Origin: an uncultured Gemmatimonadota bacterium
Lineage (GTDB): Bacteria > JAAXHH01
Reading direction: 5' to 3'
Assembly (NCBI GenBank): GCA_951812955.1
Contig: OX638340.1
Span: 1 to 64,000, forward strand
DNA length: 64,000 bases
The position numbers and the translations under genes are program-made. Below, in pieces: positions 425 through 21,430 of the stretch (positions within the stretch are counted from its first letter, which is position 1; every line of letters begins with the position of its first letter). The notes beneath the pieces are model-generated. The model was not told the DNA's origin, did not search any database, and saw only the letters and a program-made list of their open reading frames with translations.

Positions 425-1276
425 ATGGATCCTTCCTGCATTGCCCACTGCCTGACGGAAGCAGAGCGGGACCAATTCGATAAGCAGGGCTATTTCATCG
501 TGGAGAACGTCCTGGCGGACGACATGGTCAAGGCCCTGAACCGCATCGCGGACCGTATCGACGAGGAAAACCGGCCGAAAGAGGGCGACGGCGTCTACCG
601 TGTCCTGAACCACTTCGACATCATCGGCCGGGACGACCTGCTGCTGGAACTGCTTGACTGGCCGAAAACCTTCCCCAAGGTCTGGGGTATACTCGGCTGG
701 CACATTCAGCTGTACCATTCCCATTTAATCGTCTCGCCACCGTGGCCGGCCGGACAGAAACCCAGGAAACGGCGCCTGGGCTGGCACCAGGACAGCGGCA
801 GGCTGAACATCGACCTGGAAACCTCGCCCCGCCCGCGGATATCGTTGAAAGTGGCGTTCTTTTTGAGCGACTGCACGGCAACTGACCGCGGGAACTTCCA
901 CGCCGTTCCGGGTAGCCATCGCAGAGACGAAATCGAGTTTCCCGAGGACGACGAGCTGGATCCGGACGGGGCTGTGCCGATCCAGGCGGCGGCCGGCGAC
1001 GCCGTGTTCTTTGATCGCCGCCTCTGGCACGCTTCGGGGATCAACTATTCCGAGATCAGCCGCAAGGTGCTTTTCTACGGATACAGCTACCGGTGGCTGC
1101 GTCCCCGGGACAACATGACGGTGGATCATTACATGAGCCGCTGCGACCCCATCCGGAGACAGCTTCTTGGCGCCGGACCATCGGGTGGTCATGGTTATAC
1201 TTCGCCCCTGCTCGAAGACATCCCCCTGCGCGAGTGGATCGGCAAACACGCGGGCCGGGAGAACGTGGTCGGCTGA
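425..1276 (+). CDS. Phytanoyl-CoA dioxygenase (PhyH) family Fe(II)/2-oxoglutarate oxygenase
   Basis: 283-aa ORF. It has 'GYFIVENVL' at the N-terminus, 'WHQDS' (the HxD iron ligands) and 'GDAVFFDRRLWHASGIN' (distal His), which are typical of PhyH-family proteins. Confidence 0.8.
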   Translation: MDPSCIAHCLTEAERDQFDKQGYFIVENVLADDMVKALNRIADRIDEENRPKEGDGVYRVLNHFDIIGRDDLLLELLDWPKTFPKVWGILGWHIQLYHSHLIVSPPWPAGQKPRKRRLGWHQDSGRLNIDLETSPRPRISLKVAFFLSDCTATDRGNFHAVPGSHRRDEIEFPEDDELDPDGAVPIQAAAGDAVFFDRRLWHASGINYSEISRKVLFYGYSYRWLRPRDNMTVDHYMSRCDPIRRQLLGAGPSGGHGYTSPLLEDIPLREWIGKHAGRENVVG

Positions 1277-1312
1277 GACGGTGATATGCTTGGACAGTCC
1301 TCAGATAGTCCG

Positions 1313-1420
1313 GTCCACCCAGGTGGTCGGGTCCTCCCAGGTGGTCGGGTCCTCCCAGGTGGTCGGGTCCACCCAGGTGGTCGGGTCCACCCAGGTGGTC
1401 GGGTCCTCCCAGGTGATTGG
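1313..1420. repeat. Tandem repeat, 18 bp x 6 (gtccWcccaggtggtcgg)
   Basis: Units at 1313-1330, 1331-1348, 1349-1366, 1367-1384, 1385-1402 and 1403-1420. Only the a/t at unit position 5 and the last unit (gtgattgg) differ. The array is intergenic and ends at the start of the next ORF. Confidence 0.97.
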
Positions 1421-1422
1421 GC

Positions 1423-1716
1423 ATGAGTGAATCAACCGGAAACATGGCGGAACAGCAGGCCCTGCTCGACCGGATCGCCGAGGCCGTGGTCGCGCGCGAA
1501 CTCACCGCGCCCGCGGTGCTCTTCCTTGAATCTATGAAACCCCTCTCGTTTCTGGGTGGTCAGTTCATGGCGTTTCTCAGTCCCTTCATTCACATGGTGG
1601 TCGATGCGTCAGAATACGACCGGATCGCCGAGGCCATCGAGCGCCGCGAGAACGTGGAATTTCTGATACAACGCATTGAGCATCATGCTTCCGGGAACGA
1701 TGACCCGGCCGACTGA
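1423..1716 (+). CDS. Small hypothetical protein (~97 aa) with one hydrophobic segment; possible first gene of the 1.4-8.0 kb operon
   Basis: ORF 1417..1716 has TTG at 1417 and ATG at 1423 and 1444. Composition looks protein-like, with hydrophobic 'APAVLFLESMKPLSFLGGQFMAFLSPFI'. I recognise no family, and the start is uncertain. Confidence 0.5.
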   Translation: MSESTGNMAEQQALLDRIAEAVVARELTAPAVLFLESMKPLSFLGGQFMAFLSPFIHMVVDASEYDRIAEAIERRENVEFLIQRIEHHASGNDDPAD

Positions 1717-1720
1717 TTTC

Positions 1721-1765
1721 TGTCCAACCAGGTTCTGGCCAATCAGGTTCCGGCCAACCAGATTC
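1721..1765. repeat. Tandem repeat, 15 bp x 3 (yggccaaycagrttc)
   Basis: tgtccaaccaggttc / tggccaatcaggttc / cggccaaccagattc, directly after the stop at 1716. Confidence 0.85.
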
Positions 1766-1835
1766 GTAAGTACGCGCAGACGCTCGGCGTACCGCTTCAG
1801 GTAGATGCTTTCCATGTTCACGTAGAAGAATCCCC

Positions 1836-3638
1836 ATGTCCCTTCCATCGGATATTGAAGTCATTCTGGCCACGGACTGCGGCAGCACGACGACCAAGGC
1901 CATCCTGATCGAAAAACGGTCCGGCGCCTACCGTCTCCTTGTTCGCGGCGAGGCGCCGACGACCGTGGAGGCGCCCTTCGAGGATGTCACGCGGGGCGTG
2001 CTCAACGCGGTGCGCGAGGTGGAGGAGCAATCCGGCCGCGCGATCCTCGACGGGGACCGGATCGTCTCGCCGGGGGCCGGGGGCCGGGGGGTTGACCTCT
2101 ACGTCTCGACGAGCAGCGCCGGCGGCGGGCTTCAGATGATGGTGGCCGGGGTGGTCAAGAGCATGACCGCCGAGAGCGCCGAACGGGCGGCCCTCGGCGC
2201 GGGCGCCATCGTCATGGAAACACTGGCGTCCAACGACGGGCGCCTGCCCCACGAACGCATCGAACGCATCCGGCAACTTCGACCGGACATGATCCTGCTT
2301 TCGGGCGGCGTGGACGGCGGTACAAAGTCCCACGTGGTCGAGATGGCAGAACTAATCTCCGCCGCCGACCCGAGACCCCGTCTGGGAAGCGGATACGATC
2401 TGCCGGTCATATTTGCCGGAAATACAGAGGCCGGCGAGGACGTCAGGCGGATCCTGGACGACAGGACGGAACTCAGCCAGGTGGAGAACCTGCGGCCCGT
2501 GCTCGAGGCGGAGAACCTGGGCCCCGCGCGGGAACGGATCCATACACTGTTCATGGAACACGTGATGGCCCAGGCGCCCGGTTACCGGGCCCTGATGGCG
2601 TGGACCCACGTGCCCATCATGCCCACCCCCGGCGCCGTGGGCAGGATGGTGCGGGTCGTCGCCGACCGCGACGGTATCGACGTGGCGGGCGTGGACATCG
2701 GCGGCGCGACCACCGATGTGTTCTCGGTCTTCGGCGGCGCCTTCAACCGGACCGTGAGTGCCAATCTCGGCATGAGTTACAGCATTTCCAACGTGTTGAC
2801 GGAAGCGGGACTGGAGGCCATTGCGCGGTGGCTGCCGTTCGATATGACCGACGCCGATCTGAAGGACCGCCTCGGCAACAAGATGATCCGTCCCACCAGC
2901 ATCCCCCAGACCATGGAGGAACTGATCATCGAGCAGGCCGTGGCCCGCGAAGCCCTGAGGTTGGCCTTCGAGCAGCACAGGAACTTTGCCGTGACGTTGA
3001 AGGGCGTGCAACAGCTTCGAACGATATCGGACACCTTTGACCAGCAGACGGGCGGACAGACCCTGGTCGACCTGATGAACCTGGACCTGATCATCGGCAG
3101 CGGCGGCGTGCTTTCCCATGCGCCGAACCGGTCACAGGCCGCGTTGATGCTGGTGGACGCCTTTCAGCCGGTAGGCATCACGAACCTGGCGGTGGACAGC
3201 ATATTCATGATGCCCCACCTGGGGGTGCTTTCCACCGTGCATGAGACCGCGGCGCTGGAGGTTTTCGACCGAGACTGCCTCGTATATCTCGGACCCTGCG
3301 TCGCCCCGGCCGGAAGGGGTAACGCGGGTTCGCACAGCGTGACGGTGAAGGCCAGGGCCGATGGCGTGGAAACCGTGTGCGAGGCCGTCGTGGGAGAACT
3401 GGCCGCGATCCCGACAGGGGAAGCGGAGGAAGTCGTACTGGAGGTCATTCCATCCCGCGGTTTTGACGTCGGCGCCGGCAGAGGCACGCCGGTCACCCGT
3501 ACCGTCCGCAATGGCCCGCTGGGCGTGATTATCGATACGCGCGGCAGACCGCTTCAACTGCCGGCCGACGCGGCCGAAAGGGTGGAGGTCCTGAAGCGAA
3601 GTTACCGCGCACTCGAAGTCTATCCGGAGTCCAGTTGA
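1836..3638 (+). CDS. GlmL/MutL-like (glutamate mutase L family) ASKHA-fold ATPase, long 600-aa form
   Basis: The N-terminal phosphate-1 motif 'ILATDCGSTTTKAILIEK' is characteristic of the GlmL/MutL family. A second 'GVDIGGATTDVFS' motif marks the second ASKHA lobe, and 'LIIGSGGVLSHAP' is also present. The stop TGA 3636-3638 overlaps the next ATG. Confidence 0.7.
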   Translation: MSLPSDIEVILATDCGSTTTKAILIEKRSGAYRLLVRGEAPTTVEAPFEDVTRGVLNAVREVEEQSGRAILDGDRIVSPGAGGRGVDLYVSTSSAGGGLQMMVAGVVKSMTAESAERAALGAGAIVMETLASNDGRLPHERIERIRQLRPDMILLSGGVDGGTKSHVVEMAELISAADPRPRLGSGYDLPVIFAGNTEAGEDVRRILDDRTELSQVENLRPVLEAENLGPARERIHTLFMEHVMAQAPGYRALMAWTHVPIMPTPGAVGRMVRVVADRDGIDVAGVDIGGATTDVFSVFGGAFNRTVSANLGMSYSISNVLTEAGLEAIARWLPFDMTDADLKDRLGNKMIRPTSIPQTMEELIIEQAVAREALRLAFEQHRNFAVTLKGVQQLRTISDTFDQQTGGQTLVDLMNLDLIIGSGGVLSHAPNRSQAALMLVDAFQPVGITNLAVDSIFMMPHLGVLSTVHETAALEVFDRDCLVYLGPCVAPAGRGNAGSHSVTVKARADGVETVCEAVVGELAAIPTGEAEEVVLEVIPSRGFDVGAGRGTPVTRTVRNGPLGVIIDTRGRPLQLPADAAERVEVLKRSYRALEVYPESS

Positions 3639-4762
3639 TGGCCCACGCCTATACATCGGGCCTGCGCGTATCGCCCCGGACCGTTGTCGCCCGGACACGG
3701 CGCCTTCCACTGAGTGGACAGGTGGTGGTGCAGGTGGATGACCGGGTACGGCCCGATACGGTGGTCGCAGAGACGTATCTGCCCGGACCGGTGCACAACG
3801 TCAACGTCGCCAATGCCCTGGCCATTGCGCCCGAGGACGTACCAGGCTGTATGCTGAAGCAACGGAACGATTCGGTGGAAAAAGGGGAGTTGATCGCCGA
3901 ATCAAAGGGGATTTTCGGGCTGTTCAAGTCCGCTGTCCGGTGCCCAGAGCGCGGAACAGTCGAAATGGTGTCGGATGTGACCGGCCAGGTGCTTATTCGG
4001 GAACCGTCGACCCCGGTACGGATCAACGCCTATCTCGATGGCAGGATAACCGAACTCCTTCCTGGAGAGGGTGTCATGGTGGAAACAGTCGGAGCCTTCA
4101 TCCAGGGCATCTTCGGCATAGGGGGCGAAGTGCACGCGCCGATAAATCAGATCGTCCAGTCGCCCGATGAGGAGGTCACCGAGGAGATGGTCGATGCGCG
4201 GTGCGCGGGACAGATCGTCTGCGGCGGATCCATGATCACCCTTGACGCGCTGCGTAAGTTGATAAGGGTCGGCGCGTCGGGTGTGGTGGTAGGGGGCATG
4301 CAGTACCACGACATCGGCGACCTCCTGGGTTACCAGATCGGCGTCGCGGTGACCGGCGGGGAAGACATCGGCCTGACCGTGGTGGTCACCGAAGGCTTCG
4401 GGCGGCTGCCCATGGCCGAGCGCACGTTCGACCTGATCGGGTCCATGGAGGGCCGGGAAGCCTCTATGAGCGGCGCCACGCAGATCCGGGCCGGTGTGAT
4501 TCGCCCCGAAATCATCATTAAGACCGACGGCTTCGAAGAACCGCAGGCACGATCGGATCCGGCGGCCCGCGGCCTGGTATCCGGGTCCCTGGTGCGCCTG
4601 ATCCGCAAGCCATGGTTTGGAGAAATCGCCACGGTGGCGTCGTTGCCGGAACAACCCGTCAGGCTTCCGACAGGCGCCCTGGCCCGGGTGCTGGAAGTTC
4701 GCAGGACGAACGGAGAGATCGTGACCGTGCCCCGAGCCAACGTGGAGATCGTGGAGTCCTGA
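3638..4762 (+). CDS. Hypothetical soluble protein (374 aa), translationally coupled on both sides
   Basis: ATG 3638 overlaps the upstream TGA (TGATG). Its own TGA 4760-4762 overlaps the next ATG. The N-terminal 'GQVVVQVDDRVRPDTVVAE' and 'GELIAESKG' resemble barrel-sandwich hybrid strands, and the C-terminal 'GSLVRLIRKPWFGEIATV' is KOW-like. Both resemblances are weak and by eye. Confidence 0.7.
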   Translation: MAHAYTSGLRVSPRTVVARTRRLPLSGQVVVQVDDRVRPDTVVAETYLPGPVHNVNVANALAIAPEDVPGCMLKQRNDSVEKGELIAESKGIFGLFKSAVRCPERGTVEMVSDVTGQVLIREPSTPVRINAYLDGRITELLPGEGVMVETVGAFIQGIFGIGGEVHAPINQIVQSPDEEVTEEMVDARCAGQIVCGGSMITLDALRKLIRVGASGVVVGGMQYHDIGDLLGYQIGVAVTGGEDIGLTVVVTEGFGRLPMAERTFDLIGSMEGREASMSGATQIRAGVIRPEIIIKTDGFEEPQARSDPAARGLVSGSLVRLIRKPWFGEIATVASLPEQPVRLPTGALARVLEVRRTNGEIVTVPRANVEIVES

Positions 4763-5700
4763 TGCGTCTATCCCCGTCACGCCGCAAGCCACACCCTGAT
4801 TCCTTCGCGATCGCGCTGCTGCGTGCTGTCCTCGCGTGTACGGTGTTCGTCGCCATGGCGCAGACGGATCTCCTTTTCGCACAGACTGACACCGAATCCG
4901 GCTGGTTCAACGCGGACCGGACCCAGGCCCTGGTACTCGGGATCGTCCTGACGGGCGCCATTCTGCTTTACGTTGTGCTGGCCGCCTCGGGCCGGCCCCT
5001 TTTCATTCGTAAAATCGCCGGCCTGGAAACGGTCGAGGAAGCCGTGGGCAGGGCGACGGAGATGGGCAAGCCCATCCTCTACGTCCCCGGCCTGAACGAC
5101 ATGGACGAGGTGCAGACCATCGCGTCCATGAACCTGCTGGGTCATCTCGCCACCATCATCGCGGGATACGACTCCAGGCTGCACGTACCCGTACGCAAGT
5201 CCCTCGTCATGAGCGTGGCGCGCGAGACCGTGCAGCAGTCCTACCTGTCCGCGGGGCGCCCCGACGCTTACCAGGAGGACGACATTCACTACGTGTCGGA
5301 CGCCCAATTCGCCTACGCGGCGGCCGTCGATGGCATCATCGTACGTGAACGGCCGGCCGCATGCTTCTACCTGGGCGGATTCTACGCCGAATCCCTTATC
5401 CTGGCGGAAACGGGCAACTCCATCGGGGCCATACAGATCGCGGGAACGGCCAGGCCTCCTCAACTGCCATTCTTCGTGGCGGCATGCGACTATACGCTGA
5501 TCGGCGAGGAACTTTTCGCCGCCAGCGCGTACCTGTCCAAGGAGCCGCGCATGCTCGGCAGCCTGAAGGGCCAGGACGCCGGCAAGGGCATCGCCATCGT
5601 GTTCATCCTGGCCGGCAGCGCGCTGGCCACACTGGAGTCCGTCACCGGAAACGAGACCGTCCGCGAAGTGTCGCAAATCGTCCTCTGGCTTTTCAGGTAG
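4762..5700 (+). CDS. Membrane protein of unknown function (312 aa): N-terminal signal/anchor, one TM, ~200-aa soluble domain, C-terminal TM(s)
   Basis: Trimmed from ORF 4612..5700 to ATG 4762, which overlaps the upstream stop. Hydrophobic segments are 'FAIALLRAVLACTVFVAMA', 'ALVLGIVLTGAILLYVVLAA' and 'GIAIVFILAGSALATL'. The central segment is 'FIRKIAGLETVEEAVGRATEMGKPILYVPG'. Confidence 0.75.
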   Translation: MRLSPSRRKPHPDSFAIALLRAVLACTVFVAMAQTDLLFAQTDTESGWFNADRTQALVLGIVLTGAILLYVVLAASGRPLFIRKIAGLETVEEAVGRATEMGKPILYVPGLNDMDEVQTIASMNLLGHLATIIAGYDSRLHVPVRKSLVMSVARETVQQSYLSAGRPDAYQEDDIHYVSDAQFAYAAAVDGIIVRERPAACFYLGGFYAESLILAETGNSIGAIQIAGTARPPQLPFFVAACDYTLIGEELFAASAYLSKEPRMLGSLKGQDAGKGIAIVFILAGSALATLESVTGNETVREVSQIVLWLFR

Positions 5701-5705
5701 ATCCC

Positions 5706-6386
5706 ATGCGTCGTAAAATACCGCTCATCATCACATTCATCATCGGCGTTGTCCTGGTCACAGGGTATTTCGTGACAAGGGGACCGTTCAACACGCTGTA
5801 TGAGAGTTTCTCCGATTATTTCGCCATCATTACGGTCTTCGCCTTCATCCTCGGCGGCGGCAGTCTGCTAAAGATTCATTTGAAACGCGTTTCCAACCGA
5901 TCCACGGACTGGCCCTACAGTGTGGTAACCCTGGCGGGGTTCCTCGTCACCCTGGTGATCGGACTGTTCAAGGTGGGCAATCCGGATGGGATGGGCGGGG
6001 AGATCCTGGCTGCCGGTTCCTGGCTGCGCTTCCTGTTCGACGGGGTCTACAATCCGCTGTCGGCGACCATGTTCTCCCTGCTGGCCTTCTTTGTCGCCTC
6101 GGCGTCCTACCGGGCCTTCAGAGCGCGTACGAAGGAGGCCACCATCCTCCTTTCCGCCGCCATGGTCATCCTGCTGGGCAGAACCCCCGTGGGCGCCTGG
6201 CTGACGGCCTGGATGCCGGAAATCCTGGGATTTCTCGAACTGCCGAACCTGGCCAACTGGATCATGGCCTGGCCGAACACGGCCGGCCAGCGTGCGATAA
6301 TGATCGGCATCGCCCTGGGGGTCATCGCGACCTCACTGCGCATCATCCTGGGGATCGAGCGCAACTACCTGGGCAGGAGGGAGTGA
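5706..6386 (+). CDS. Polytopic membrane protein of unknown function (226 aa, ~6 TM)
   Basis: Trimmed from ORF 5361..6386 to ATG 5706, 5 nt after the upstream TAG. It contains repeated hydrophobic helices, for example 'IPLIITFIIGVVLVTGYFV', 'YFAIITVFAFILGGGSLL' and 'YSVVTLAGFLVTLVIGLF'. Confidence 0.75.
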   Translation: MRRKIPLIITFIIGVVLVTGYFVTRGPFNTLYESFSDYFAIITVFAFILGGGSLLKIHLKRVSNRSTDWPYSVVTLAGFLVTLVIGLFKVGNPDGMGGEILAAGSWLRFLFDGVYNPLSATMFSLLAFFVASASYRAFRARTKEATILLSAAMVILLGRTPVGAWLTAWMPEILGFLELPNLANWIMAWPNTAGQRAIMIGIALGVIATSLRIILGIERNYLGRRE

Positions 6387-6388
6387 GC

Positions 6389-7288
6389 ATGCGGATTCCC
6401 GATTCCATCCTGCATATCGACCGGCGGATCATCTTCCTGCTCATCGGGGCGGCCGTCTGCATACCCCTGATCCTGCAGCCCCGCTTCCAGGACAGTCCCA
6501 CGCCTATCGTCCAGTCGATTTTCGACACGGTGGAGCGGCTGCCGTCCGGGTCGCGCGTATTCCTTTCCTTCGATTACGGTCCGGACACGGCGCCCGAACT
6601 GGATCCCATGGCCAAGGCCCTCGTGCGGCACACGATGACCCGGGGCCACGAGGTGTCCTTCTTCACCCTGTTCCCCGAAGGGCTGGGACAGATCAAGAAG
6701 ATCACGGACAACCTGCTGCCTGTGGAGTTCCCGGAGAAAGCCTATGGCAGGGATTTCGTGAACCTGGGTTACAAGGCCGGCCTGGGTGGCGCGATTAATA
6801 CGATGGTCGTCAACTTCCGAACGCTGATCAATGCCGACGCGGAGGGCACGCCGCTCGACGATCTGCCCATGACCGCGGATGTCGACGAGATGGTGGACTA
6901 TGCCATTATCCTCAGCCTGACCGCGGGCGACCCGGGACTGAAGGAGTGGATTCAGTTCGCGGGCGATATCGCGGGGATTCCCGTCATGGGCGGGGGCACC
7001 GCCGTGGTGGCGCCGGAACTGTATCCCTACTATCCTCAGCAACTGGTCGGCCTGATGGGCGGCCTCAAGGGCGCTTCCGAGTACGAGTCCGCCCTTGTGG
7101 ACCGGTATCCGGCCTACCGTAACGCCACCATGGACGCCACCATGCGCATGGGGCCCCAGGTCGTCACCCACGTGCTGATCGTCCTGCTGATCCTGCTGGG
7201 CAATCTGGCTTACTTCTTCGGCCGATCTGGCCGACCGGGCCGGAATGACCGGACGGACCGGGCGGACCAGGCGGACCGCAGGCGTTAA
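6389..7288 (+). CDS. Bitopic membrane protein of unknown function (299 aa) with an Arg/Asp-rich repeat tail
   Basis: AGGAGG at 6374-6379 lies 9 nt before ATG 6389 (GTG 6383 is an alternative). It has an N-terminal TM 'IIFLLIGAAVCIPLIL', a ~230-aa soluble domain and a C-terminal TM 'VVTHVLIVLLILLGNLAYFF'. The tail 'GRSGRPGRNDRTDRADQADRRR' is encoded by 9-bp repeats. Confidence 0.7.
   Translation: MRIPDSILHIDRRIIFLLIGAAVCIPLILQPRFQDSPTPIVQSIFDTVERLPSGSRVFLSFDYGPDTAPELDPMAKALVRHTMTRGHEVSFFTLFPEGLGQIKKITDNLLPVEFPEKAYGRDFVNLGYKAGLGGAINTMVVNFRTLINADAEGTPLDDLPMTADVDEMVDYAIILSLTAGDPGLKEWIQFAGDIAGIPVMGGGTAVVAPELYPYYPQQLVGLMGGLKGASEYESALVDRYPAYRNATMDATMRMGPQVVTHVLIVLLILLGNLAYFFGRSGRPGRNDRTDRADQADRRR
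7220..7282. repeat. Tandem repeat, 9 bp x 7 (GRCCNNNNN family), in frame at the 3' end of the CDS
   Basis: ggccgatct ggccgaccg ggccggaat gaccggacg gaccgggcg gaccaggcg gaccgcagg, followed by the stop TAA 7286-7288. Confidence 0.85.
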
Positions 7289-7299
7289 AGGAACGGCGT

Positions 7300-7974
7300 A
7301 TGGATGTTACACTGCAGCTTTGGATCGACGCGGCCCTGACGCTGATGATCCTCAGCTTCCTGTACCGTGACAATCCTTTCTACAAATTCGCCGAACATCT
7401 CTTTGTCGGCGTGTCCGCCGCGTACCTCATGGCAATCGGATTCTGGGACCACCTGGTCCCGAACCTGCTGGGCAAACTGTTCCCCTCGCTCATGTCGGGG
7501 GTCGTGCCCGGCGCCGTCGGCCGGTCGCCGGATTACTACTACATCATCCCCGCCGTCTTCGGCCTGCTGCTTCTTACCCGCCTGGTCGACCGCTGGGCCT
7601 GGCTCAGCCGGTGGGCGCTGGCGTTCATCGTCGGCGGCTCGGCGGGATTCAACCTGCCCCGCTTCCTGGATTCGGACTTCATCATTCAGGTCCAAAGCAC
7701 CATGGTTCCGCTCGTGGTGCTCGACCCGGCTGGCAATCTGCTCTGGGGCGCGAGTTTTTCCCACATTGTACTCGTTCTGGGCGTGATCTGCGGACTGGTG
7801 TACTTCTTCTTCTCCGTAGAACACAAGGGGATACTGGGACACGTGTCTCGTGCTGGGATCTGGGTGTTGATGGTGACCTTCGGCGCCGCCTTCGGATACA
7901 CGGTCATGGCGCGCATCTCCCTCCTCACCGGCAGGATGGAAGCCCTGGGCGCCTGGCTCGCCACCATGTTCTGA
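7300..7974 (+). CDS. Polytopic membrane protein of unknown function (224 aa, ~6 TM); last gene of the operon
   Basis: An AAGGA RBS precedes ATG 7300. The protein is almost entirely hydrophobic helices, for example 'LWIDAALTLMILSFLY', 'LFVGVSAAYLMAIGFW', 'IVLVLGVICGLVYFFF' and 'IWVLMVTFGAAFGY'. Confidence 0.75.
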   Translation: MDVTLQLWIDAALTLMILSFLYRDNPFYKFAEHLFVGVSAAYLMAIGFWDHLVPNLLGKLFPSLMSGVVPGAVGRSPDYYYIIPAVFGLLLLTRLVDRWAWLSRWALAFIVGGSAGFNLPRFLDSDFIIQVQSTMVPLVVLDPAGNLLWGASFSHIVLVLGVICGLVYFFFSVEHKGILGHVSRAGIWVLMVTFGAAFGYTVMARISLLTGRMEALGAWLATMF

Positions 7975-7988
7975 TTGGAGACCGTCGC

Positions 7989-8045
7989 GCGGCCCGGTCC
8001 GATGTCCGGGCGACCCGGTCCGATGTCCGGGCGACCCGGTACCGG
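7989..8045. repeat. Tandem repeat, 21 bp x ~2.7, each unit able to form a GCCCGG/CCGGGC hairpin; possible operon terminator
   Basis: gcggcccggtccgatgtccgg (7989-8009), gcgacccggtccgatgtccgg (8010-8030) and gcgacccggtaccgg (8031-8045). It lies 15 nt after the stop at 7974. Confidence 0.85.
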
Positions 8046-8156: not shown

Positions 8157-9134
8157 ATGCAAGCCATCATCCCCGTTGCGGGCAGCGGAAGCCGGTTGCG
8201 CCCGATCACGCCAGGAACCCCCAAGGCCCTGGTTCCCGTCGCGGGGAAGCCGGTGCTCGAGTACATCCTCGAACAGATTGCCGGCCTGGGCATCCGCGAG
8301 GTCATACTGGTCATCTCCCCCTCGGGGGACGCCATCCGCGGCTTTGTCGATCAACGTGATGAGCTCGAGGCCCGGTACGTCGTACAACGCGAGCCGCTCG
8401 GGATCGGTCACGCCGTGTATCAGTGCCGCGGCCTGCTGAATGACGGCCCCGTCCTGGTCGTACTGGGCGATATAATCTACCTGTCGGACTATTCCTTCCT
8501 GGGCAAAGAACCGCCGGGCCACGCTATCGGCGTAAAGCGCGTATCAGGCGATCTTACCGGGTACGGGCTGGTAGAAGTCTTGGACGGGCGGATCACCCGG
8601 CTGGTGGAGAAACCCGATCATCCCATCTCCAATACGGCGATCGCCGGGATCTACTATTTTTCCAGGTCCGGTCCGCTCATGGATGGACTGGAGAACCTTG
8701 TCAAGTCAGATCGAAGGACCCGAAACGAGTATCAGCTAACGGACGCGCTGCAGTGGATGGTGGAAAAGGGCGAGCATCTGTCTCCCTTCGACGTCGACCA
8801 CTTGTACGACTGCGGCACGCCGGACCGTCTGCTGGAGGCCAACCGGCGGCTTCTGGACCTGAACGGGGGGAACTGCAGCATACCGGGCAGCGTCATCATA
8901 CCGCCCGTCGACATCGCCTCCGGCGCCCGGGTGCACCGATCCGTCGTCGGTCCCCACGTCGCCATCTCGTCCCGGGCCTCCGTCGTGCGCACCGTCGTAC
9001 GCGACGCCACCATCGGAACCTGCGCCCGGATCGAAAACTGTGATCTCAGGCGTTCCGTCGTTACGCCGCACGCCGTGTTGGCCGACACCGTAGAACGTGC
9101 ATCGACCGGCGCGCGTTGCGCGGTTTATGTCTGA
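8157..9134 (+). CDS. Sugar-phosphate nucleotidyltransferase (NTP_transferase N-domain plus left-handed beta-helix C-domain)
   Basis: The N-terminal signature 'IIPVAGSGSRLRPITPGTPKALVPVAGKPVLEYIL' is typical of glucose-1-P thymidylyl/uridylyl/mannose-1-P guanylyltransferases. The C-terminal half has hexapeptide-like repeats. Sugar specificity cannot be determined. Confidence 0.8.
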   Translation: MQAIIPVAGSGSRLRPITPGTPKALVPVAGKPVLEYILEQIAGLGIREVILVISPSGDAIRGFVDQRDELEARYVVQREPLGIGHAVYQCRGLLNDGPVLVVLGDIIYLSDYSFLGKEPPGHAIGVKRVSGDLTGYGLVEVLDGRITRLVEKPDHPISNTAIAGIYYFSRSGPLMDGLENLVKSDRRTRNEYQLTDALQWMVEKGEHLSPFDVDHLYDCGTPDRLLEANRRLLDLNGGNCSIPGSVIIPPVDIASGARVHRSVVGPHVAISSRASVVRTVVRDATIGTCARIENCDLRRSVVTPHAVLADTVERASTGARCAVYV

Positions 9135-9192
9135 CCATGTACCGATAACCGATCGTCCCCGATCCTCAGGCAGTTCATTAGGAGCATGACAC

Positions 9193-10335
9193 ATGACACC
9201 TGGTTACCTCTTTACTTCCGAATCCGTTACCGAAGGCCATCCCGATAAAGTCGCAGACCAGATCTCCGACGCCGTATTGGACTCCGTCATCGAGCAGGAC
9301 CCCTATTCCCGGGTGGCCTGCGAGACCTTCGTCACTACGGGCCTGGTGCTTGTCGGAGGGGAGATCACGACAGACGGCTACGTGGACGTGCAACGCGTGG
9401 CGCGCGAGACCGTCAAGTCCATCGGTTATACGGACTCGGGATTCGGGCTGGACTGGGAGTCCTGCGGCGTGGTCGTTTCCCTCGACCAGCAATCGGCCGA
9501 TATCGCCATGGGGGTGGACCGGGAGGGCGCCGGCGACCAGGGCATGATGTTCGGCTACGCGACCAACGAGACCCCTGAAATGATGCCTCTGCCCATTACC
9601 CTCGCCCACCGGCTGACCCGCAACCTCGCGTCGATCCGGAAGGACGGCGTTGCGCCTTACCTGCGTCCCGACGGAAAGTCACAGGTCACGGTGGAATACG
9701 TGGACGGCAGTCCCCGGCGGATCGACTCTGTGGTCATCGCCGCCCAGCACGACCCGGACGTCTCCGGCGAGAAGATCAGGGAGGACATCGTCAACGAGGT
9801 AATCGGTCCCGCGCTGCCGGCCGAGTTGGTTGACCCGGGCCGGATCAAGTACCACGTCAACGCGACCGGCCGTTTCGTTACGGGGGGACCGCAGGGCGAC
9901 GCCGGCCTGACAGGCCGGAAGATCATCGTGGACACGTACGGCGGCTACTGCCGCCACGGCGGCGGAGCCTATTCGGGCAAGGACCCGACCAAGGTGGACC
10001 GCTCGGCTTCCTATGCCGCGCGCTACGTCGCCAAGAACGTCGTCGCGGCGGGTCTGGCGGAGAAGTGCGAGATCCAGCTCGCCTACGTCATCGGCGTGGC
10101 CGAACCGGTTTCGGTCAATGTAGATACCTTCGGCACGGGGACCGTCGACGACCTGGAGATCACGCGCCTGATCCGCAAGCACTTCGACCTGACGCCGCAG
10201 GGCATCATTGAGCGTCTCGACCTGAGGCGGCCGATATACCGTCCCACGGCTTCCTACGGCCACTTCGGACGGAACGAGGCGGGTTTCACCTGGGAGCAAT
10301 GCGACAAGGTGGAGGAACTCAGGAACCACGCCTGA
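9193..10335 (+). CDS. metK: S-adenosylmethionine synthetase
   Basis: '[24 protein letters not shown]', '[12 protein letters not shown]', '[16 protein letters not shown]' and '[17 protein letters not shown]' are canonical MetK motifs. AGGAG lies 9 nt upstream. Confidence 0.97.
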
Positions 10336-10352
10336 GCAGGAAGGGGCTTGGT

Positions 10353-10388
10353 CCGTGAACGCGTTACTGCGGGTGACCGCGTTCACGG
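10353..10388. terminator. Perfect 11-bp inverted repeat between convergent metK and lptG; candidate bidirectional terminator
   Basis: CCGTGAACGCG (10353-10363) pairs with CGCGTTCACGG (10378-10388) around a 14-nt loop. There is no clear U-tract, so intrinsic termination is not assured. Confidence 0.45.
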
Positions 10389-10401
10389 TGTCACGGGGGT
10401 C

Positions 10402-11484
10402 TCATTTCGGCGCCCTGACCAGCAGAATCAGGGCGAGTAGTCCGAAGAGCGCGTTGGCGCCCCATGCCGCCGCCATGGGCGGGAGCAATCCGGCGTGACC
10501 GAAGGCCTGGGCAAATCGGAGCAGTCCCCAGTAGACGAAACAGATCCCGATACTCAGGGCAAATCCCACCGCGACGCCGCCCCGTCTCAGATGGGAGGCC
10601 AGCGCGCCGCCCAGCAGCACGATGATCAGACCCGCGCCCGGAAATGCGATCTTCAGGTTGAGGTCTACCAGGTAGCCCTGCACGTCTCCTCCTCCCCGCC
10701 GTACGTTCTGAATCAACTGGTCGAGTTCGCCGTAACTCATCTCCTCGGGGCGTTTCTGCCCTCGCAGGAAGTCCTCCGGCGTCTCGGACCATCCGTCGGG
10801 TTCCAACTCGGCGAACGAGGTGTATTCGGACAGTCCGCCTCCAACCAGAAACTGTCGTTTAACCCCGTTGAAAAGCAACCAGCGCCCATCCATCCAGACG
10901 GCGCGTTCCGCCGTGAGGACGCTGGTGACGGAGCCGTCGCGGAACTCGGTGACGTGTATCCCCGTGCCCTCCTCGATGCGTCCGTTGAAAACGCGGATAT
11001 AGATCTGGCGCCCTCCATCTCCCCTGAAATACACATCGTACCGGATGTGTTGCCCTGCGCCGCCTTGCATGTCCACGTGTTCCGATTTGATTTCGGCACG
11101 TTTCATGCTCGTGTGGGGAACAAGCCATTCACCGGCCCAGAACAGGCATGCGCATACCACCACGCTGACGAGGAGCATCGGCCGCAGCAACCGGTACAGG
11201 CTGAGCCCCGATGCTTTCATGGCGGTCAGTTCTCCCAGCCTGGTCAGCTGGCCGAAGGTATAAAGACTGGCGAGCAGCAGACTGACAGGAATCGTGAGCA
11301 CGAAGATGTAGGGCATGTAATAGACGTAGTAGAGCGCGATATAACCCGGTGCCACGTTGCGGTCCAGGAATCGGTCCAATTGCTCGATGAGATCGACCAC
11401 GAAGAAGATGCTGACGAAGGCGACCAGGCTGACGGCGATGGCGGTAATGAACAGGCGGAGTACGTACCGGGTGATCAGGGACAT
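10402..11484 (-). CDS. lptG: LPS export ABC permease, LptG-like (YjgP/YjgQ family)
   Basis: 360 aa. The architecture is 3 TM, a periplasmic beta-jellyroll region and 3 TM, and the protein begins 'ITRYVLRLFI'. It is paired with a second YjgP/YjgQ gene 37 bp upstream. Confidence 0.8.
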   Translation of the reverse strand: MSLITRYVLRLFITAIAVSLVAFVSIFFVVDLIEQLDRFLDRNVAPGYIALYYVYYMPYIFVLTIPVSLLLASLYTFGQLTRLGELTAMKASGLSLYRLLRPMLLVSVVVCACLFWAGEWLVPHTSMKRAEIKSEHVDMQGGAGQHIRYDVYFRGDGGRQIYIRVFNGRIEEGTGIHVTEFRDGSVTSVLTAERAVWMDGRWLLFNGVKRQFLVGGGLSEYTSFAELEPDGWSETPEDFLRGQKRPEEMSYGELDQLIQNVRRGGGDVQGYLVDLNLKIAFPGAGLIIVLLGGALASHLRRGGVAVGFALSIGICFVYWGLLRFAQAFGHAGLLPPMAAAWGANALFGLLALILLVRAPK

Positions 11485-11521
11485 GAAGTAGCGTTCCTCT
11501 GGTGATTTCGACGCAATGACG

Positions 11522-12748
11522 TCAGATGCGATCCCTGCCGCTGACCCAGACCAGGACGGCTCCGGGTACGCCTATGACGATGTTCGCGGCCCACATCGCC
11601 CAGACTGGATCGATCAGATCGCGGTCCGCCAGTTCTTCGCCGCCGAGCAGGCAGGCCCAGTACAGGAGGAAGAAGCAGAGGCTGACGCCGACGCTCACGC
11701 CCATGCCGCTCCGGCGGATACGCACACCCAGCGGCGCGCCGATCAGCACGAAGACGAGACACGCCGCCGAAATGGCGTACTTTTTGTGGATTTCGACGAC
11801 GTAGCTGTTCTTCTGCCGCTGCCTCAACGAGATCGTCCGCTGCGCTTTGGCCCTGGCCGCTTCGATGGAATCTGTCTTCGCCTGCGAGTGAACCGGCCCG
11901 GGTACAAGACTTGCCGCGACCTCGTCGATCTCCAGTTGCCATTCATCGATTTTCGCCTGCATCATTTCAATGTTCAATTCGCGGTCGCCCCGGGTTCCCG
12001 CCTCCGACCGCTGGACGCCGCTGGGCGCGGTGCGAATCGAAAACCGCTGCCGCTCGAAGACCTCTTTGAAATACCGCCCCGTAGACTCGTCCTGTTGAAG
12101 GAGCTCTCCGTCATAGAGCATCAGGTTGATCCTGCTGCCCGTCTCGTTGACGTGAAACTCGCCCGACCTGGCCGTCATGATGCGCGGGTAGCGCAGGTTC
12201 TCCGTTTCGTAGATGGTGATGCTTTCAATCTCATTGTTCCTCGGATTGACCCGGTCGATCAATATGCTGTATCCCGGAATGTCCTTCATGAATATGCCTG
12301 CGGTGAAAAGCAGCGTGGGACGGGCGCGGTGGATATCGTTCATGAGCGAACGGGCCCGGTAATTGGCTTCGGGCAGGATGACGTCCATAAAGTACAGGTG
12401 ACTGCCGCCAAGGAGTATTCCCAGAACCAGCACGGGTGAGACCATCTGGTAGAAACTGACGCCGCCCGCCTTGAACGCCGTGACTTCGTTATCGGCCGAA
12501 AGCCGGCCGAAAGCCATGAGACTGGCGACCAGTACGGACATGGGAATCGATACGGCGACGATCCAGGCAAGGTTGAGAAAGAAAACCTCGAGCACGGTAA
12601 GCAGTTCGAGGTTCTTGCCTATGATGAGGTCGGCAATCTGAAATATGATGTCCATCACGAGGATGAACGTGATGATCACGAATGAAAACAGAAAGGGCCC
12701 GACGTGCGCTTTAAGAACGTATCGGTAGAGGTGAACCGGGAGGGTCAT
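11522..12748 (-). CDS. lptF: LPS export ABC permease, LptF-like (YjgP/YjgQ family)
   Basis: 408 aa. It begins 'LYRYVLKAHVGPFLFSFVIITFILVM' and has the same TM / periplasmic domain / TM layout. Assignment of F versus G rests on gene order only. Confidence 0.75.
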   Translation of the reverse strand: MTLPVHLYRYVLKAHVGPFLFSFVIITFILVMDIIFQIADLIIGKNLELLTVLEVFFLNLAWIVAVSIPMSVLVASLMAFGRLSADNEVTAFKAGGVSFYQMVSPVLVLGILLGGSHLYFMDVILPEANYRARSLMNDIHRARPTLLFTAGIFMKDIPGYSILIDRVNPRNNEIESITIYETENLRYPRIMTARSGEFHVNETGSRINLMLYDGELLQQDESTGRYFKEVFERQRFSIRTAPSGVQRSEAGTRGDRELNIEMMQAKIDEWQLEIDEVAASLVPGPVHSQAKTDSIEAARAKAQRTISLRQRQKNSYVVEIHKKYAISAACLVFVLIGAPLGVRIRRSGMGVSVGVSLCFFLLYWACLLGGEELADRDLIDPVWAMWAANIVIGVPGAVLVWVSGRDRI

Positions 12749-18695: not shown

Positions 18696-18813
18696 ATACC
18701 ATGCTCGGTCCGGCGTCAGGCCACGCCACGGTTTTTCGGACCCTGCGTAACCGGATGTATCGACACGGGCGTAAATCCCGTGTTTCAAGGAACGTCGACC
18801 GATGCGGAACAGG

Positions 18814-18936
18814 ATCAATCGGACCAATCGGGCCAATCGGACCAGTCCGGCCAGGCGGACCGAGTGGGCAAATCTGGCCAAGCTGGCCAAGCTGACTAGG
18901 CGGACCAGGCGGACCGAGCTGACCAGGCGGACCAGA
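18814..18936. repeat. Degenerate tandem repeat, 9 bp x ~14 (GRCCRRNNN family), immediately 5' of the methyltransferase gene
   Basis: ..gaccaatcg ggccaatcg gaccagtcc ggccaggcg gaccgagtg ggcaaatct ggccaagct ggccaagct gactaggcg gaccaggcg gaccgagct gaccaggcg gaccagaga, followed by ATG 18940. It is stop-free and in frame with an upstream ATG at 18802. Confidence 0.9.
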
Positions 18937-20380: not shown

Positions 20381-21430
20381 TTGAACTACGACGCATTGCT
20401 CCTGGTATCATTCGGGGGCCCGGAAGGCGCCGCCGACGTCCTCCCCTTTCTCGAGCGCGTGCTCAAAGGCCGGCGCGTTCCCAGGGAACGAATGATGGAG
20501 GTCGCGGAACACTACCACCATTTCGGTGGGGTCAGCCCGATAAACAGCCAGAACCGGGCACTGATCTCCGCCCTTGAAAGCGCGTTGGCGAACCGCGACC
20601 TTCCCCTCCCGATCTACTGGGGAAACCGGAACTGGCATCCCTTGCTGGCGGATACGGTCCGGCGGATGGCCGCGGACGGGATCCAACGGGCGCTGGCCCT
20701 CGTTACGTCCGCCTACAGCTCCTATTCGAACTGCAGGCAGTACCTCGAGAACATCGAGGATGCCCGGCGCGAGGTGGGCGGCGGCGCCCCGAAAATCGAC
20801 AAGATCAGGCCCTTTTTCCATCATCCGGGTTATATCGAAACGATGGAGGCACGCGTTCGTTCCGCCCTGGACCGCTTGCCGGAAGCGCGCCGCGCCTCGG
20901 CGCACCTGGTGTATACCGCCCACAGCATACCCCTGGCCATGGCTCGGGGATGCGCGTACGAAGCGCAACTCCGGGAAGCCTCCCGGCTCATCAGCGCGCG
21001 CGCGGGCGCTTCCTCCTGGACGCTGGCATTTCAAAGCCGCAGCGGTCCGCCCGCTCAGCCCTGGCTGGAACCCGATGTCTGTGATTACATCCGGTCGTTC
21101 CACGAGACTGGCGCGGGCCGGGCGGACCGAGCGGACCGAGCGGGCCGGGCGGACCGGGCGGACCGGGATATCGTGTTGATCCCCGTAGGATTCATCTCGG
21201 ACCACATGGAAGTGGCCTACGACCTGGACATTGAAGCGCGGGCGTGTTGCGATGAGCTCGGGGTACGCATGGTCCGGGCGGAAACGGCGGGGACTCATCC
21301 CCGCTTCGTGGAAATGATCGTGGAACTCGTCGAAGAACGCCTGTCCCTGACGACGGCCAGGGCGGCCGTGGGTGTCCTGGAACCGTGGCCCGATCGATGC
21401 CCGCCGGACTGCTGCCCTTCCGGCAGGTAG
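20381..21430 (+). CDS. hemH: Ferrochelatase (probably coproporphyrin ferrochelatase) with a repeat-encoded loop insertion and a Cys-rich C-terminus
   Basis: TTG start 20381 lies behind GGGAGGAAG. Motifs are 'LLLVSFGGPEG', 'SPINSQ', 'YTAHSIP' and 'PVGFISDHMEVAYDLD'. The C-terminus is 'DRCPPDCCPSGR'. Confidence 0.85.
   Translation: MNYDALLLVSFGGPEGAADVLPFLERVLKGRRVPRERMMEVAEHYHHFGGVSPINSQNRALISALESALANRDLPLPIYWGNRNWHPLLADTVRRMAADGIQRALALVTSAYSSYSNCRQYLENIEDARREVGGGAPKIDKIRPFFHHPGYIETMEARVRSALDRLPEARRASAHLVYTAHSIPLAMARGCAYEAQLREASRLISARAGASSWTLAFQSRSGPPAQPWLEPDVCDYIRSFHETGAGRADRADRAGRADRADRDIVLIPVGFISDHMEVAYDLDIEARACCDELGVRMVRAETAGTHPRFVEMIVELVEERLSLTTARAAVGVLEPWPDRCPPDCCPSGR
21117..21170. repeat. 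Tandem repeat, 9 bp x 6 (GRCCGRGCG), in frame inside hemH
   Basis: ggccgggcg gaccgagcg gaccgagcg ggccgggcg gaccgggcg gaccgggat. It is translated as 'GRADRADRAGRADRADRD' just before the conserved PVGF motif. Confidence 0.9.

What the first reader, a model, noticed from the sequence alone, without database searches (positions are those of the whole stretch)
1417..7974. Translationally coupled operon: GlmL/MutL-like ASKHA ATPase, a soluble partner and four membrane proteins of unknown family
Six to seven same-strand genes are packed with almost no spacing:
- TGATG overlaps at 3636-3640 and 4760-4764;
- a 5-nt gap at 5701-5705;
- a 2-nt gap at 6387-6388;
- an 11-nt gap at 7289-7299.
The only member I can place is the 600-aa protein, which has the GlmL/MutL-type motifs 'DCGSTTTK' and 'DIGGATTD'. 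In characterised cases this family accompanies soluble B12-dependent mutases, yet no mutase or B12 genes are present here. Its partners instead are a 374-aa soluble protein, two bitopic proteins with ~200-aa soluble domains (312 and 299 aa) and two ~6-TM proteins (226 and 224 aa). None of these shows transporter, secretion or respiratory motifs that I recognise. An ATPase with stoichiometrically coupled membrane subunits suggests an uncharacterised membrane-associated machine. Repeat arrays also bracket the operon (1313-1420 and 1721-1765 upstream, 7220-7282 and 7989-8045 at the end).
Basis: partly seen in the sequence, partly recalled or inferred. Interest (0 to 1): 0.75.

Follow-up and report, generated by a model that had tools for sequence, protein, structure and literature searches.

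The report
Widespread uncharacterised ATPase-plus-membrane-complex gene cluster
This is a real seven-gene cluster found in many bacterial phyla: an actin-fold ATPase, two soluble partners and a four-protein inner-membrane complex whose families have no characterised member, so it looks like an undescribed kind of membrane machine.

Summary
Seven same-strand genes (g0-g6, 1423-7974) are packed exactly as described.

Only two match a Pfam family: g1 is a MutL/GlmL-type ASKHA ATPase, and g3 is DUF6754. g4, g5 and g6 match nothing in Pfam, NCBIfam or PADLOC. g5 also gave no match to PDB sequences.

The cluster consists of two modules:
- **g0-g1-g2.** g2 follows g1 in 50 of 57 metagenome loci. g1 and g2 are fused in one locus.
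- **g3-g4-g5-g6 cassette.** The gene order is fixed in 82 loci from many phyla, with 1-4 tandem paralogous copies. g5-g6 fusions exist.

The two modules sit together in about half of the loci. No mutase or B12 gene recurs nearby.

g2 folds confidently (pLDDT 85.5) into a barrel-sandwich hybrid, a swivelling beta/beta/alpha domain and a KOW-like barrel. The swivelling domain is the kind seen in PEP-utilising enzymes and in the diol-dehydratase reactivase DdrA.

Best reading (about 0.4): g1+g2 is a split, reactivase-like ATP switch. It acts on the Rossmann-like cytoplasmic domain of g3 and drives a membrane complex that has a conserved periplasmic domain.

The flanking repeats are copy-number-variable and occur across the genome. 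They are not part of the system.

The literature search found no paper that mentions DUF6754.

The parts
1423..1716 (+). g0: small (97-99 aa) helical protein with a moderately hydrophobic central segment. It travels with g1, either just upstream of g1 or between g2 and g3.
   Evidence: The ORF is. No Pfam match. It is conserved in 17 g3-anchored loci (alignment A9) and in 52 of 68 g1-anchored loci. It is called as a 97-aa gene in L086. The longest ORF starts at TTG 1417.
1836..3638 (+). g1: ASKHA (actin-fold) ATPase of the Pfam MutL family. It carries an extra conserved C-terminal domain of about 120 aa (482-600) that GlmL lacks.
   Evidence: PF13941 scores E = 3e-127 over residues 10-481. It falls below the NCBIfam GlmL, Or-4 and glmL_fam cut-offs. 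Mean column identity is 71% across phyla, and most residues of the phosphate-binding motifs are invariant. No relative was found among PDB sequences.
3638..4762 (+). g2: soluble 374-aa partner made of an N-terminal barrel-sandwich hybrid domain, a central swivelling beta/beta/alpha domain and a C-terminal KOW/SH3-like barrel.
4762..5700 (+). g3: DUF6754 protein. It runs from a short periplasmic N-terminus through a TM, a Rossmann-like cytoplasmic domain of about 200 aa and a second TM to a periplasmic C-terminus. It is the first gene of the cassette.
   Evidence: PF20539 scores E = 1.6e-118. It is 55-65% identical across phyla, with 60-90 invariant positions. Homologues carry an N-terminal signal peptide plus FN3 or a PQQ propeller, or a C-terminal Peptidase_S49 domain. 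The AF2 model is weak (61.5) and gives only generic Rossmann matches.
5706..6386 (+). g4: polytopic membrane protein with about 6 TM segments and no known family. It carries the invariant ASASYRAFRAR-type motif.
   Evidence: Hydropathy. Alignment A6. Pfam gave only weak, sub-threshold matches. It always follows g3. One paralogue has an FG-GAP propeller inserted.
6389..7288 (+). g5: bitopic protein with N- and C-terminal TM segments and a conserved alpha/beta domain of about 225 aa between them, inferred to be periplasmic. No known family. Its tail is lengthened by a 9-nt coding repeat (7247-7278).
   Evidence: No Pfam or PDB match. The family holds 4,676 50%-identity clusters at E <= 1e-3. Both ends carry positive charge (DRR... 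and ...RRR). Natural g5-g6 fusions are P0373, P0375 and P0384.
7300..7974 (+). g6: polytopic membrane protein of about 6 TM segments (3 above the hydropathy threshold used, the rest read by eye) with no known family. It is the last gene of the cassette.
   Evidence: Hydropathy. Alignment A7. Pfam gave only chance-level matches. It always follows g5 and is fused to g5 in three cluster representatives.

Best explanation
The locus encodes a two-module system.

**Module B (g3-g4-g5-g6)** is a hetero-oligomeric inner-membrane complex.
- g3 contributes a highly conserved Rossmann-like domain on the cytoplasmic face.
- g5 contributes a conserved alpha/beta domain on the periplasmic face.
- g4 and g6 form the polytopic membrane core.

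**Module A (g0-g1-g2)** is a cytoplasmic nucleotide switch.
- g1 binds and hydrolyses ATP.
- g2 supplies the swivelling domain that, in the related B12-enzyme reactivases (DdrA/GdrA), is built into the ATPase chain. There it holds a Rossmann-like partner subunit and releases it on ATP turnover.

I infer that g1-g2 dock on the cytoplasmic domain of g3. ATP-driven clamping and release would then be transmitted through the membrane complex to the periplasmic side, as mechanical work or transport.

One module A serves one to four paralogous cassettes. The cassettes' variable periplasmic add-ons (FN3, beta-propellers, a peptidase) would set target specificity.

**Shown:** gene content, conservation, synteny, fusions, the fold of g2 and the absence of known families.

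**Inferred:** topology, the physical complex, the g1-g2-g3 contact, the direction of coupling and the substrate.
For: **Evidence that the genes work together**
- The order g3-g4-g5-g6 is invariant in 82 loci from many phyla, in 1-4 tandem copies.
- Paralogue types keep a fixed order, C7-C5-C2.
- g5-g6 fusions exist, and a g1-g2 fusion exists.
- g2 follows g1 in 50 of 57 loci. g0 accompanies g1 in 52 of 68. A cassette lies within 10 kb in 19 of 38.
- g2 stop and g3 start overlap here and in many phyla.

**Evidence for an active ATPase**
- Most residues of the ATP-binding motifs of g1 are invariant.

**Evidence for the reactivase analogy**
- MutL/GlmL, EutA and diol-dehydratase reactivase all belong to the actin superfamily set analysed in PMC5597319.
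- g2 has a confident swivelling domain that matches DdrA among others.
- In the reactivases, a Rossmann-like beta subunit sits on the swivelling domain and leaves after ATP hydrolysis (PMC7674605).
- The g3 cytoplasmic domain is Rossmann-like.

**Evidence for topology**
- Signal peptide plus FN3 or a propeller lies N-terminal to the first g3 TM.
- Peptidase_S49 follows the last g3 TM.
- Both ends of g5 are positively charged.

**Evidence for a tightly packed assembly**
- Conservation is very high. Mean column identity is 71% for g1 and 64% for g2, and g3 is about 60% identical across phyla.
Against: - No direct evidence of protein contacts.
- The modules lie apart in about half of the loci. 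In WOR-3, g2 stands alone. In Planctomicrobium only g2-g3 are adjacent.
- The g3 model is poor exactly in its most conserved stretch (residues 205-271, pLDDT below 50). Its fold assignment is therefore only generic.
- No substrate, cofactor or phenotype is known.
Confidence: 0.4

Rival explanations
1. Transporter plus enzyme. The cassette is a secondary or otherwise self-sufficient transporter. g0-g1-g2 is an independent ATP-dependent soluble enzyme, in the manner of hydantoinase, oxoprolinase or acetone carboxylase, that acts on the transported compound. The two are linked only metabolically.
For: - MutL has weak hydantoinase-family similarity.
- The modules are separable. A cassette is absent within 10 kb in 19 of 38 g1 loci, and many cassette-only loci exist.
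- g2 is alone in WOR-3.
Against: - No other catabolic genes recur nearby.
- The periplasmic FN3, propeller and peptidase add-ons, and the 2-4 paralogous cassettes per ATPase, are unusual for a small-molecule importer.
- The cassette proteins match no transporter family.
- g2/g3 start-stop overlaps are conserved across phyla.
Confidence: 0.2
2. Membrane enzyme plus dedicated reactivase. The cassette is a cofactor-bearing membrane enzyme. g1-g2 is its repair or maturation chaperone, strictly analogous to GlmL, EutA and DdrAB, rather than its motor.
For: - g1 has family ties to GlmL-type accessory proteins.
- g2 has the swivelling domain seen in DdrA.
- g3 has very many invariant polar residues clustered after beta-strands, like an active site.
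- One A module serves several cassettes.
Against: - No B12, radical-SAM or other cofactor motifs or genes recur.
- g1 is far more conserved than is usual for accessory chaperones (the comparison itself is my judgement).
- The periplasmic decorations suggest the output is outside the cytoplasm.
Confidence: 0.2
3. Phosphorelay or group-translocation machine. g1 phosphorylates the g2 swivelling domain, which carries the phosphoryl group to g3 or to a substrate. This would be a split analogue of PEP-utilising enzymes, the PTS or P-type ATPases.
For: - A PPDK gene lies about 1 kb downstream of the triple cassette in 13-17 Zixibacteria/Ignavibacteria loci.
- g3 has a D113-x-D115-x-V motif that is invariant in the main paralogue type.
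Against: - g2 has no conserved histidine. The position expected from the TSH motif (my own manual motif alignment) is Ile in the window and in the consensus.
- hhalign of g2 against PPDK gives probability 0.5%.
- D113 and D115 are replaced in C2-type paralogues.
- The barrel-sandwich domain lacks a conserved biotin/lipoyl lysine.
Confidence: 0.08
4. Membrane-tethered cytomotive filament. g1 polymerises like other actin-fold proteins. The cassette and g0 anchor or position the filament at the membrane.
For: - g1 has the actin fold.
- Its conservation across phyla (71% mean column identity) is of the order seen in polymer-forming proteins (the comparison is my judgement).
- The actin superfamily has evolved polymers several times (PMC5597319).
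Against: - The MutL/GlmL, EutA and DdrA branch is listed among the non-polymerising enzymes in that paper.
- The large insert and the extra C-terminal domain are not filament-like.
- No evidence of polymerisation was found.
Confidence: 0.05

Closest known systems
GlmL/MutL, the accessory protein of coenzyme-B12-dependent glutamate (methylaspartate) mutase, and the related Or-4 protein of ornithine degradation
   Same: g1 belongs to the same Pfam family (PF13941, E = 3e-127). It has the same ASKHA core and phosphate-binding motifs.
   Different: - g1 scores well below the NCBIfam cut-offs: 235 against 475, 219 against 600 and 173 against 204.
- It carries an extra conserved C-terminal domain of about 120 aa.
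- It is never next to mutase or B12 genes. It is next to g0, g2 and a membrane cassette instead.
Diol/glycerol dehydratase reactivase (DdrAB/GdrAB) and EutA
   Same: - An actin-fold ATPase works together with a swivelling beta/beta/alpha domain.
- In the reactivases that domain holds a Rossmann-like partner subunit, which is released after ATP hydrolysis (PMC7674605).
   Different: - Here the swivelling domain is on a separate polypeptide. It is flanked by a barrel-sandwich hybrid and a KOW-like barrel.
- The presumed client is a membrane complex, not a soluble B12 enzyme.
- No sequence-level homology of g2 to DdrA was detected.
PEP-utilising enzyme mobile domain (PPDK, Enzyme I, rifampin phosphotransferase)
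   Different: There is no conserved phospho-acceptor histidine, and profile comparison shows no similarity.
RnfC / NqrA N-terminal domain of ion-translocating oxidoreductases
   Different: There are no flavin, Fe-S or NADH domains. g4, g5 and g6 match no Rnf/Nqr family.
Modular ATP-driven envelope machines (ECF transporters with a shared energising module; FtsEX/MacB/LolCDE-type mechanotransmission). This is an analogy only.
   Same: One ATPase module serves several alternative membrane modules. The periplasmic domains are likely the output.
   Different: The ATPase is actin-fold, not P-loop/ABC. There is no sequence or family relationship.

Membership tests
Pfam MutL (PF13941) | Score above the gathering threshold over the full model | tested here: met
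   425.5 bits against a cut-off of 27. Residues 10-481 cover model positions 1-450.
GlmL sensu stricto (NCBIfam NF040745; TIGR01319 glmL_fam; Or-4 NF040744) | Score above the curated cut-offs | tested here: not met
   235 against 475, 173.4 against 204 and 219.3 against 600.
GlmL sensu stricto | Genomic association with B12-dependent mutase subunits (GlmS/GlmE, OraS/OraE) | tested here: not met
   No mutase or B12-binding family is among the recurrent neighbours in the 82 g3-anchored loci. The HMM survey of the 80 g1-anchored loci covered only g0-g6. The window genes flanking the cluster are PhyH, NTP_transferase, MetK and LptF/G.
Pfam DUF6754 (PF20539) | Score above the gathering threshold | tested here: met
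   394.9 bits against a cut-off of 27 for g3.
DdrA/GdrA/EutA-type reactivase | ASKHA ATPase combined with a swivelling domain | tested here: inconclusive
DdrA/GdrA/EutA-type reactivase | Client is an adenosylcobalamin enzyme; releases damaged cofactor | not testable with these tools
   No B12 genes lie nearby. The biochemistry is unknown.
PEP-utilising phosphohistidine carrier | Conserved phospho-acceptor His in the mobile domain | tested here: not met
   No invariant His in 29 or 59 g2 sequences. hhalign against PPDK gives probability 0.5%.
Biotin/lipoyl carrier domain | Conserved modified lysine at the hairpin tip | tested here: not met
   The fold is matched (Biotin_lipoyl in 23 of 29 members), but the candidate lysines vary between members.
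Known transporter, secretion or respiratory membrane families (ABC, P-type, Rnf/Nqr, MotA/ExbB and others) | Significant match of g3-g6 to any curated family | tested here: not met
   Pfam and NCBIfam on the window proteins gave no significant match. Pfam on 44-46 members of each of g4, g5 and g6 gave only scattered, sub-threshold matches.
Anti-phage defence systems (PADLOC) | A match to any defence protein model | tested here: not met
   Zero hits for all seven proteins.

The most novel reading that the evidence does not exclude
A previously unrecognised class of primary-active envelope machine in which an actin-fold (ASKHA) ATPase with a detachable swivelling-domain subunit energises a four-subunit inner-membrane complex. 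P-loop (ABC, F/V-type) and P-type ATPases are not involved. The machine would be present in thousands of lineages, including Gemmatimonadota, Planctomycetota, Acidobacteriota, Zixibacteria, Ignavibacteria, WOR-3 and others. One ATPase would be shared among paralogous membrane cassettes that differ in their periplasmic adaptors.
Probability: 0.3. Interest if true: 0.9.

Novelty: categorically new. Interest (0 to 1): 0.8.

Why it matters
All well-studied ATP-driven membrane machines use P-loop or P-type ATPases. A widespread system coupling an actin-fold ATPase to a dedicated membrane complex would add a new principle of energy coupling at the bacterial envelope.

The components are among the most conserved 'unknowns' I have seen. 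g1 is 60-66% identical between phyla. The g5 family alone spans 4,676 50%-identity clusters. They occur in environmentally dominant but poorly cultured phyla, so their function probably matters for the physiology of those groups.

The finding also corrects a likely annotation error. These g1 proteins match the GlmL/MutL family, but they have no mutase partner. Metabolic reconstructions should not read them as evidence for glutamate fermentation.

Tried and rejected
- **Internal duplication (g3~g5, g4~g6).** BLASTP and hhalign show no relationship. The g1/g2 '100%' result came from fused sequences in the alignment.
- **HAD/P-type-like Asp-phosphate site in g3 (D113xD115xV).** It is invariant in the main type but replaced in C2-type paralogues, so it is not a universal catalytic motif.
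- **Biotin/lipoyl carrier role for g2.** No conserved lysine.
- **Phosphohistidine relay.** No conserved His, and no profile similarity to PPDK.
- **Rnf/Nqr relative.** Only the barrel-sandwich domain is shared.
- **Defence system.** No PADLOC hit.
- **Riboswitch or known RNA in the leader or intergenic regions.** No Rfam hit at E <= 1.
- **Promoter and terminator scan.** Nothing above the level of shuffled sequence.
- **Repeat arrays as functional brackets.** Rejected. They are copy-number-variable against L086 and occur elsewhere in the window.
- **Foldseek of g2 against the PDB.** Only single-domain matches.
- **Foldseek against AFDB.** Unavailable.
- **PDB sequence-profile searches for g1, g2, g3 and g5.** Nothing except FN3 in the N-terminal extensions of g3 homologues.
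- **Literature.** No paper mentions DUF6754, PF20539 or PF13941. A bare 'GlmL' search returned only noise.
- **Second copy in the window.** None.


Full report
**1. What is in the window**

Seven same-strand genes occupy 1423-7974:

| Gene | Coordinates | Size |
|---|---|---|
| g0 | 1423-1716 | 97 aa (longest ORF starts at TTG 1417) |
| g1 | 1836-3638 | 600 aa |
| g2 | 3638-4762 | 374 aa |
| g3 | 4762-5700 | 312 aa |
| g4 | 5706-6386 | 226 aa |
| g5 | 6389-7288 | 299 aa |
| g6 | 7300-7974 | 224 aa |

- TGATG overlaps at 3636-3640 and 4760-4764.
- Gaps of 5, 2 and 11 nt between the later genes.

A near-identical locus on a 3.85-Mb contig (L086) has the same gene calls and the same flanks: PhyH upstream, then NTP_transferase, MetK and LptF/LptG downstream. 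The closest named relatives are Gemmatimonadota.

**2. Family assignment**

- g1 is a full-length member of Pfam MutL (PF13941, E = 3e-127). It scores well below the NCBIfam cut-offs for GlmL, the Or-4 protein and the broader glmL_fam.
- g1 has an extra conserved C-terminal domain of about 120 aa beyond the GlmL model.
- g3 is DUF6754 (PF20539, E = 1.6e-118).
- g0, g4, g5 and g6 match nothing in Pfam, NCBIfam or PADLOC. This holds even when 44-46 diverse members of each of g4, g5 and g6 are scanned one by one.
- Profile searches of PDB sequences find no solved relative of g1, g2, the g3 core or g5.
- No paper in the library mentions DUF6754, PF20539 or PF13941.

**3. Conservation and synteny**

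The 79 loci kept include:
- Zixibacteria, Ignavibacteria, Gemmatimonadota and Eisenbacteria
- Planctomycetota, including cultured Planctomicrobium
- Phycisphaerae and Acidobacteriota
- WOR-3, Coatesbacteria, Aegiribacteria, Cloacimonadota and Neomarinimicrobiota

HMM mapping of all ORFs in 82 loci shows three things:
- g3-g4-g5-g6 always occur in that order.
- The cassette is present as one to four tandem copies.
- g0, g1 or g2 lie beside it in about 35 loci.

Clustering the g3 core separates ancient paralogue types. These keep a fixed order (C7-C5-C2) in triple-cassette genomes. Single-cassette genomes mostly carry the C5 type. The window's g3 falls in a cluster of its own (C6) at the threshold used.

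The reciprocal test anchored on g1 in metagenome contigs:
- g2 follows g1 in 50 of 57 loci with room.
- g0 is present in 52 of 68. In about ten loci it sits between g2 and g3 instead of before g1.
- A cassette lies within 10 kb in 19 of 38.

The system is therefore two separable modules, A (g0-g1-g2) and B (g3-g6), that are usually but not always adjacent. Examples of dispersal:
- g2 alone next to a TMEM260-like GT-C glycosyltransferase in WOR-3
- a g1-g2 pair alone
- g2-g3 alone in Planctomicrobium

Natural fusions support physical association within modules. g1-g2 is fused in L071. g5-g6 is fused in three cluster representatives.

Conservation is striking:
- g1: mean column identity 71%, and 59-66% identity to the window protein across phyla.
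- g2: mean column identity 64%.
- g3 core: 55-65% identity with 60-90 invariant positions.
- g5: about 50% identity.
- The g5 family alone comprises 4,676 50%-identity clusters at E <= 1e-3.

**4. Anatomy**

*g2.* It folds confidently (pLDDT 85.5) into three domains:
- A C-terminal KOW/SH3-like barrel.

No PDB chain matches the whole g2 architecture.

*g3.* It has a signal-like segment, a TM, a domain of about 200 aa and a C-terminal TM. Homologues place a signal peptide plus FN3 or a PQQ propeller before the first TM. One places a Peptidase_S49 domain after the last. That puts the conserved domain in the cytoplasm. The AF2 model is weak and lowest in the most conserved stretch (205-271). The confident part is a generic Rossmann-like alpha/beta fold.

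*g5.* Basic residues sit at both ends, outside its two TM segments. Its conserved alpha/beta domain is therefore inferred to be periplasmic. Variants carry CARDB or HEAT insertions.

*g4 and g6.* Both are polytopic proteins. g4 has about 6 TM segments. g6 has about 6 by eye, of which 3 exceed the hydropathy threshold used. Both have invariant Arg, Glu and His residues. One g4 paralogue carries an FG-GAP propeller.

**5. Mechanism**

MutL/GlmL, EutA and diol-dehydratase reactivase are all in the actin-superfamily set analysed in PMC5597319. In the reactivases, the ATPase chain contains a swivelling domain on which a Rossmann-like beta subunit sits. ATP hydrolysis releases that subunit (PMC7674605).

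Here the same ingredients appear: an ASKHA ATPase, a swivelling domain and a Rossmann-like partner. They are distributed over g1, g2 and the cytoplasmic domain of g3, and g2/g3 are translationally coupled in many phyla.

My best reading (confidence about 0.4) is that g1-g2 is a split, reactivase-like nucleotide switch. It clamps and releases the g3 domain, and so drives the g3-g6 membrane complex, whose output is periplasmic. One A module serves several paralogous cassettes with different periplasmic adaptors.

The rivals are:
- an independent ATP-dependent enzyme plus a transporter
- a membrane enzyme with a repair chaperone
- a phosphorelay
- a tethered filament

**6. Comparison and novelty**

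g1 is a Pfam-level MutL member. It fails the GlmL membership tests on score cut-offs and on mutase association. Nothing else in the system belongs to a characterised family, and the composition as a whole has no described counterpart. I therefore rate it categorically new. The function remains inferred.

**7. The repeat arrays**

All four arrays are real. Three of them (not 1718-1765) vary in copy number relative to L086:

| Array | Window | L086 |
|---|---|---|
| Upstream 18-mer | 6 copies | about 2 copies |
| Downstream 21-mer | 2.5 copies | 1.5 copies |
| g5 tail repeat | reference | 18 nt longer |

Similar arrays occur elsewhere in the window. They are a slippage-prone feature of this genome, not part of the system.

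Noticed in passing
window 1308-1415, 1718-1765, 7247-7278, 7989-8040; also 18812-18935 and 21113-21167: Short G+C-rich tandem repeats (9-, 15-, 18- and 21-nt units) are scattered through the window. Three of the four beside the cluster (not 1718-1765) differ in copy number from the near-identical locus L086. The one at 7247-7278 is coding and changes the length of the cytoplasmic tail of g5 (299 against 305 aa).
   Followed up: partly
L005, L009, L012, L015, L018-L020, L024, L028, L030, L034, L039, L060 (about 1 kb downstream of the third cassette): A pyruvate phosphate dikinase gene, which itself contains a swivelling phosphohistidine domain, lies on the same strand just after the triple cassette in 13-17 Zixibacteria/Ignavibacteria loci. 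No sequence relation to g2 was found by hhalign. It may be lineage synteny or a functional hint.
   Followed up: partly
L035:9482-11866; L077:8309-10768; L001:13289-15061; P0441; P0457: Cassette proteins acquire extra domains in some lineages. g3 gains a C-terminal Peptidase_S49 (SppA-like) domain. g3 gains an N-terminal PQQ/BamB-like propeller. g4 gains an FG-GAP propeller. g5 gains CARDB or HEAT-repeat insertions. FN3 is the common N-terminal add-on of g3 outside Gemmatimonadota.
   Followed up: partly
L003:2259-2878: A nucleotidyltransferase/HepT-like toxin-antitoxin pair is inserted between g1 and g2 in one genome. In six other loci (for example L062:1475-2290) a 272-aa secreted or anchored protein of no known family sits between g1 and g2.
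   Followed up: no
L049:3788-9085 (Planctomicrobium sp. SH661) and L038, L046, L063: In Planctomicrobium only g2-g3 are adjacent. They are preceded by an FGGY kinase and the SRP receptor FtsY. No g1 or g4-g6 lie within the locus.
   Followed up: partly
L083:7150-12346 and L084:7163-12339 (WOR-3): g2 stands alone, 10-14 nt after a 945-aa TMEM260-like (GT-C O-mannosyltransferase-type) TPR protein and before a DegT-type aminotransferase. In the window, a sugar-phosphate nucleotidyltransferase follows g6. Together these are a faint glycan or cell-surface theme.
   Followed up: no
L050:5598-6035 and homologues in L048, L067-L069, L072, L079: A 146-aa two-TM protein of no known family sits immediately upstream of g0 in seven loci. 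It is absent from the window and could be an eighth, optional member.
   Followed up: partly
L108 and L113: The HMM map reads g1 g2 g2 g0 g1 g2. This suggests a tandem duplication of the ATPase module in some metagenome contigs.
   Followed up: no
window 4762-5700 (g3 residues 205-271): AlphaFold2 is least confident (pLDDT below 50) exactly where g3 is most conserved (AESLILAETG ... PFFVAACDYTLIGEELFAASAYL, with five invariant acidic residues). This is what one would expect if the segment only folds against partner subunits or in the membrane.
   Followed up: partly
window 425-1276 and 8157-12748: The flanking genes are a PhyH-family dioxygenase, an NTP_transferase with a hexapeptide-repeat tail, MetK, and the LPS-export permeases LptF and LptG. 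The organism is therefore a diderm that exports LPS.
   Followed up: yes
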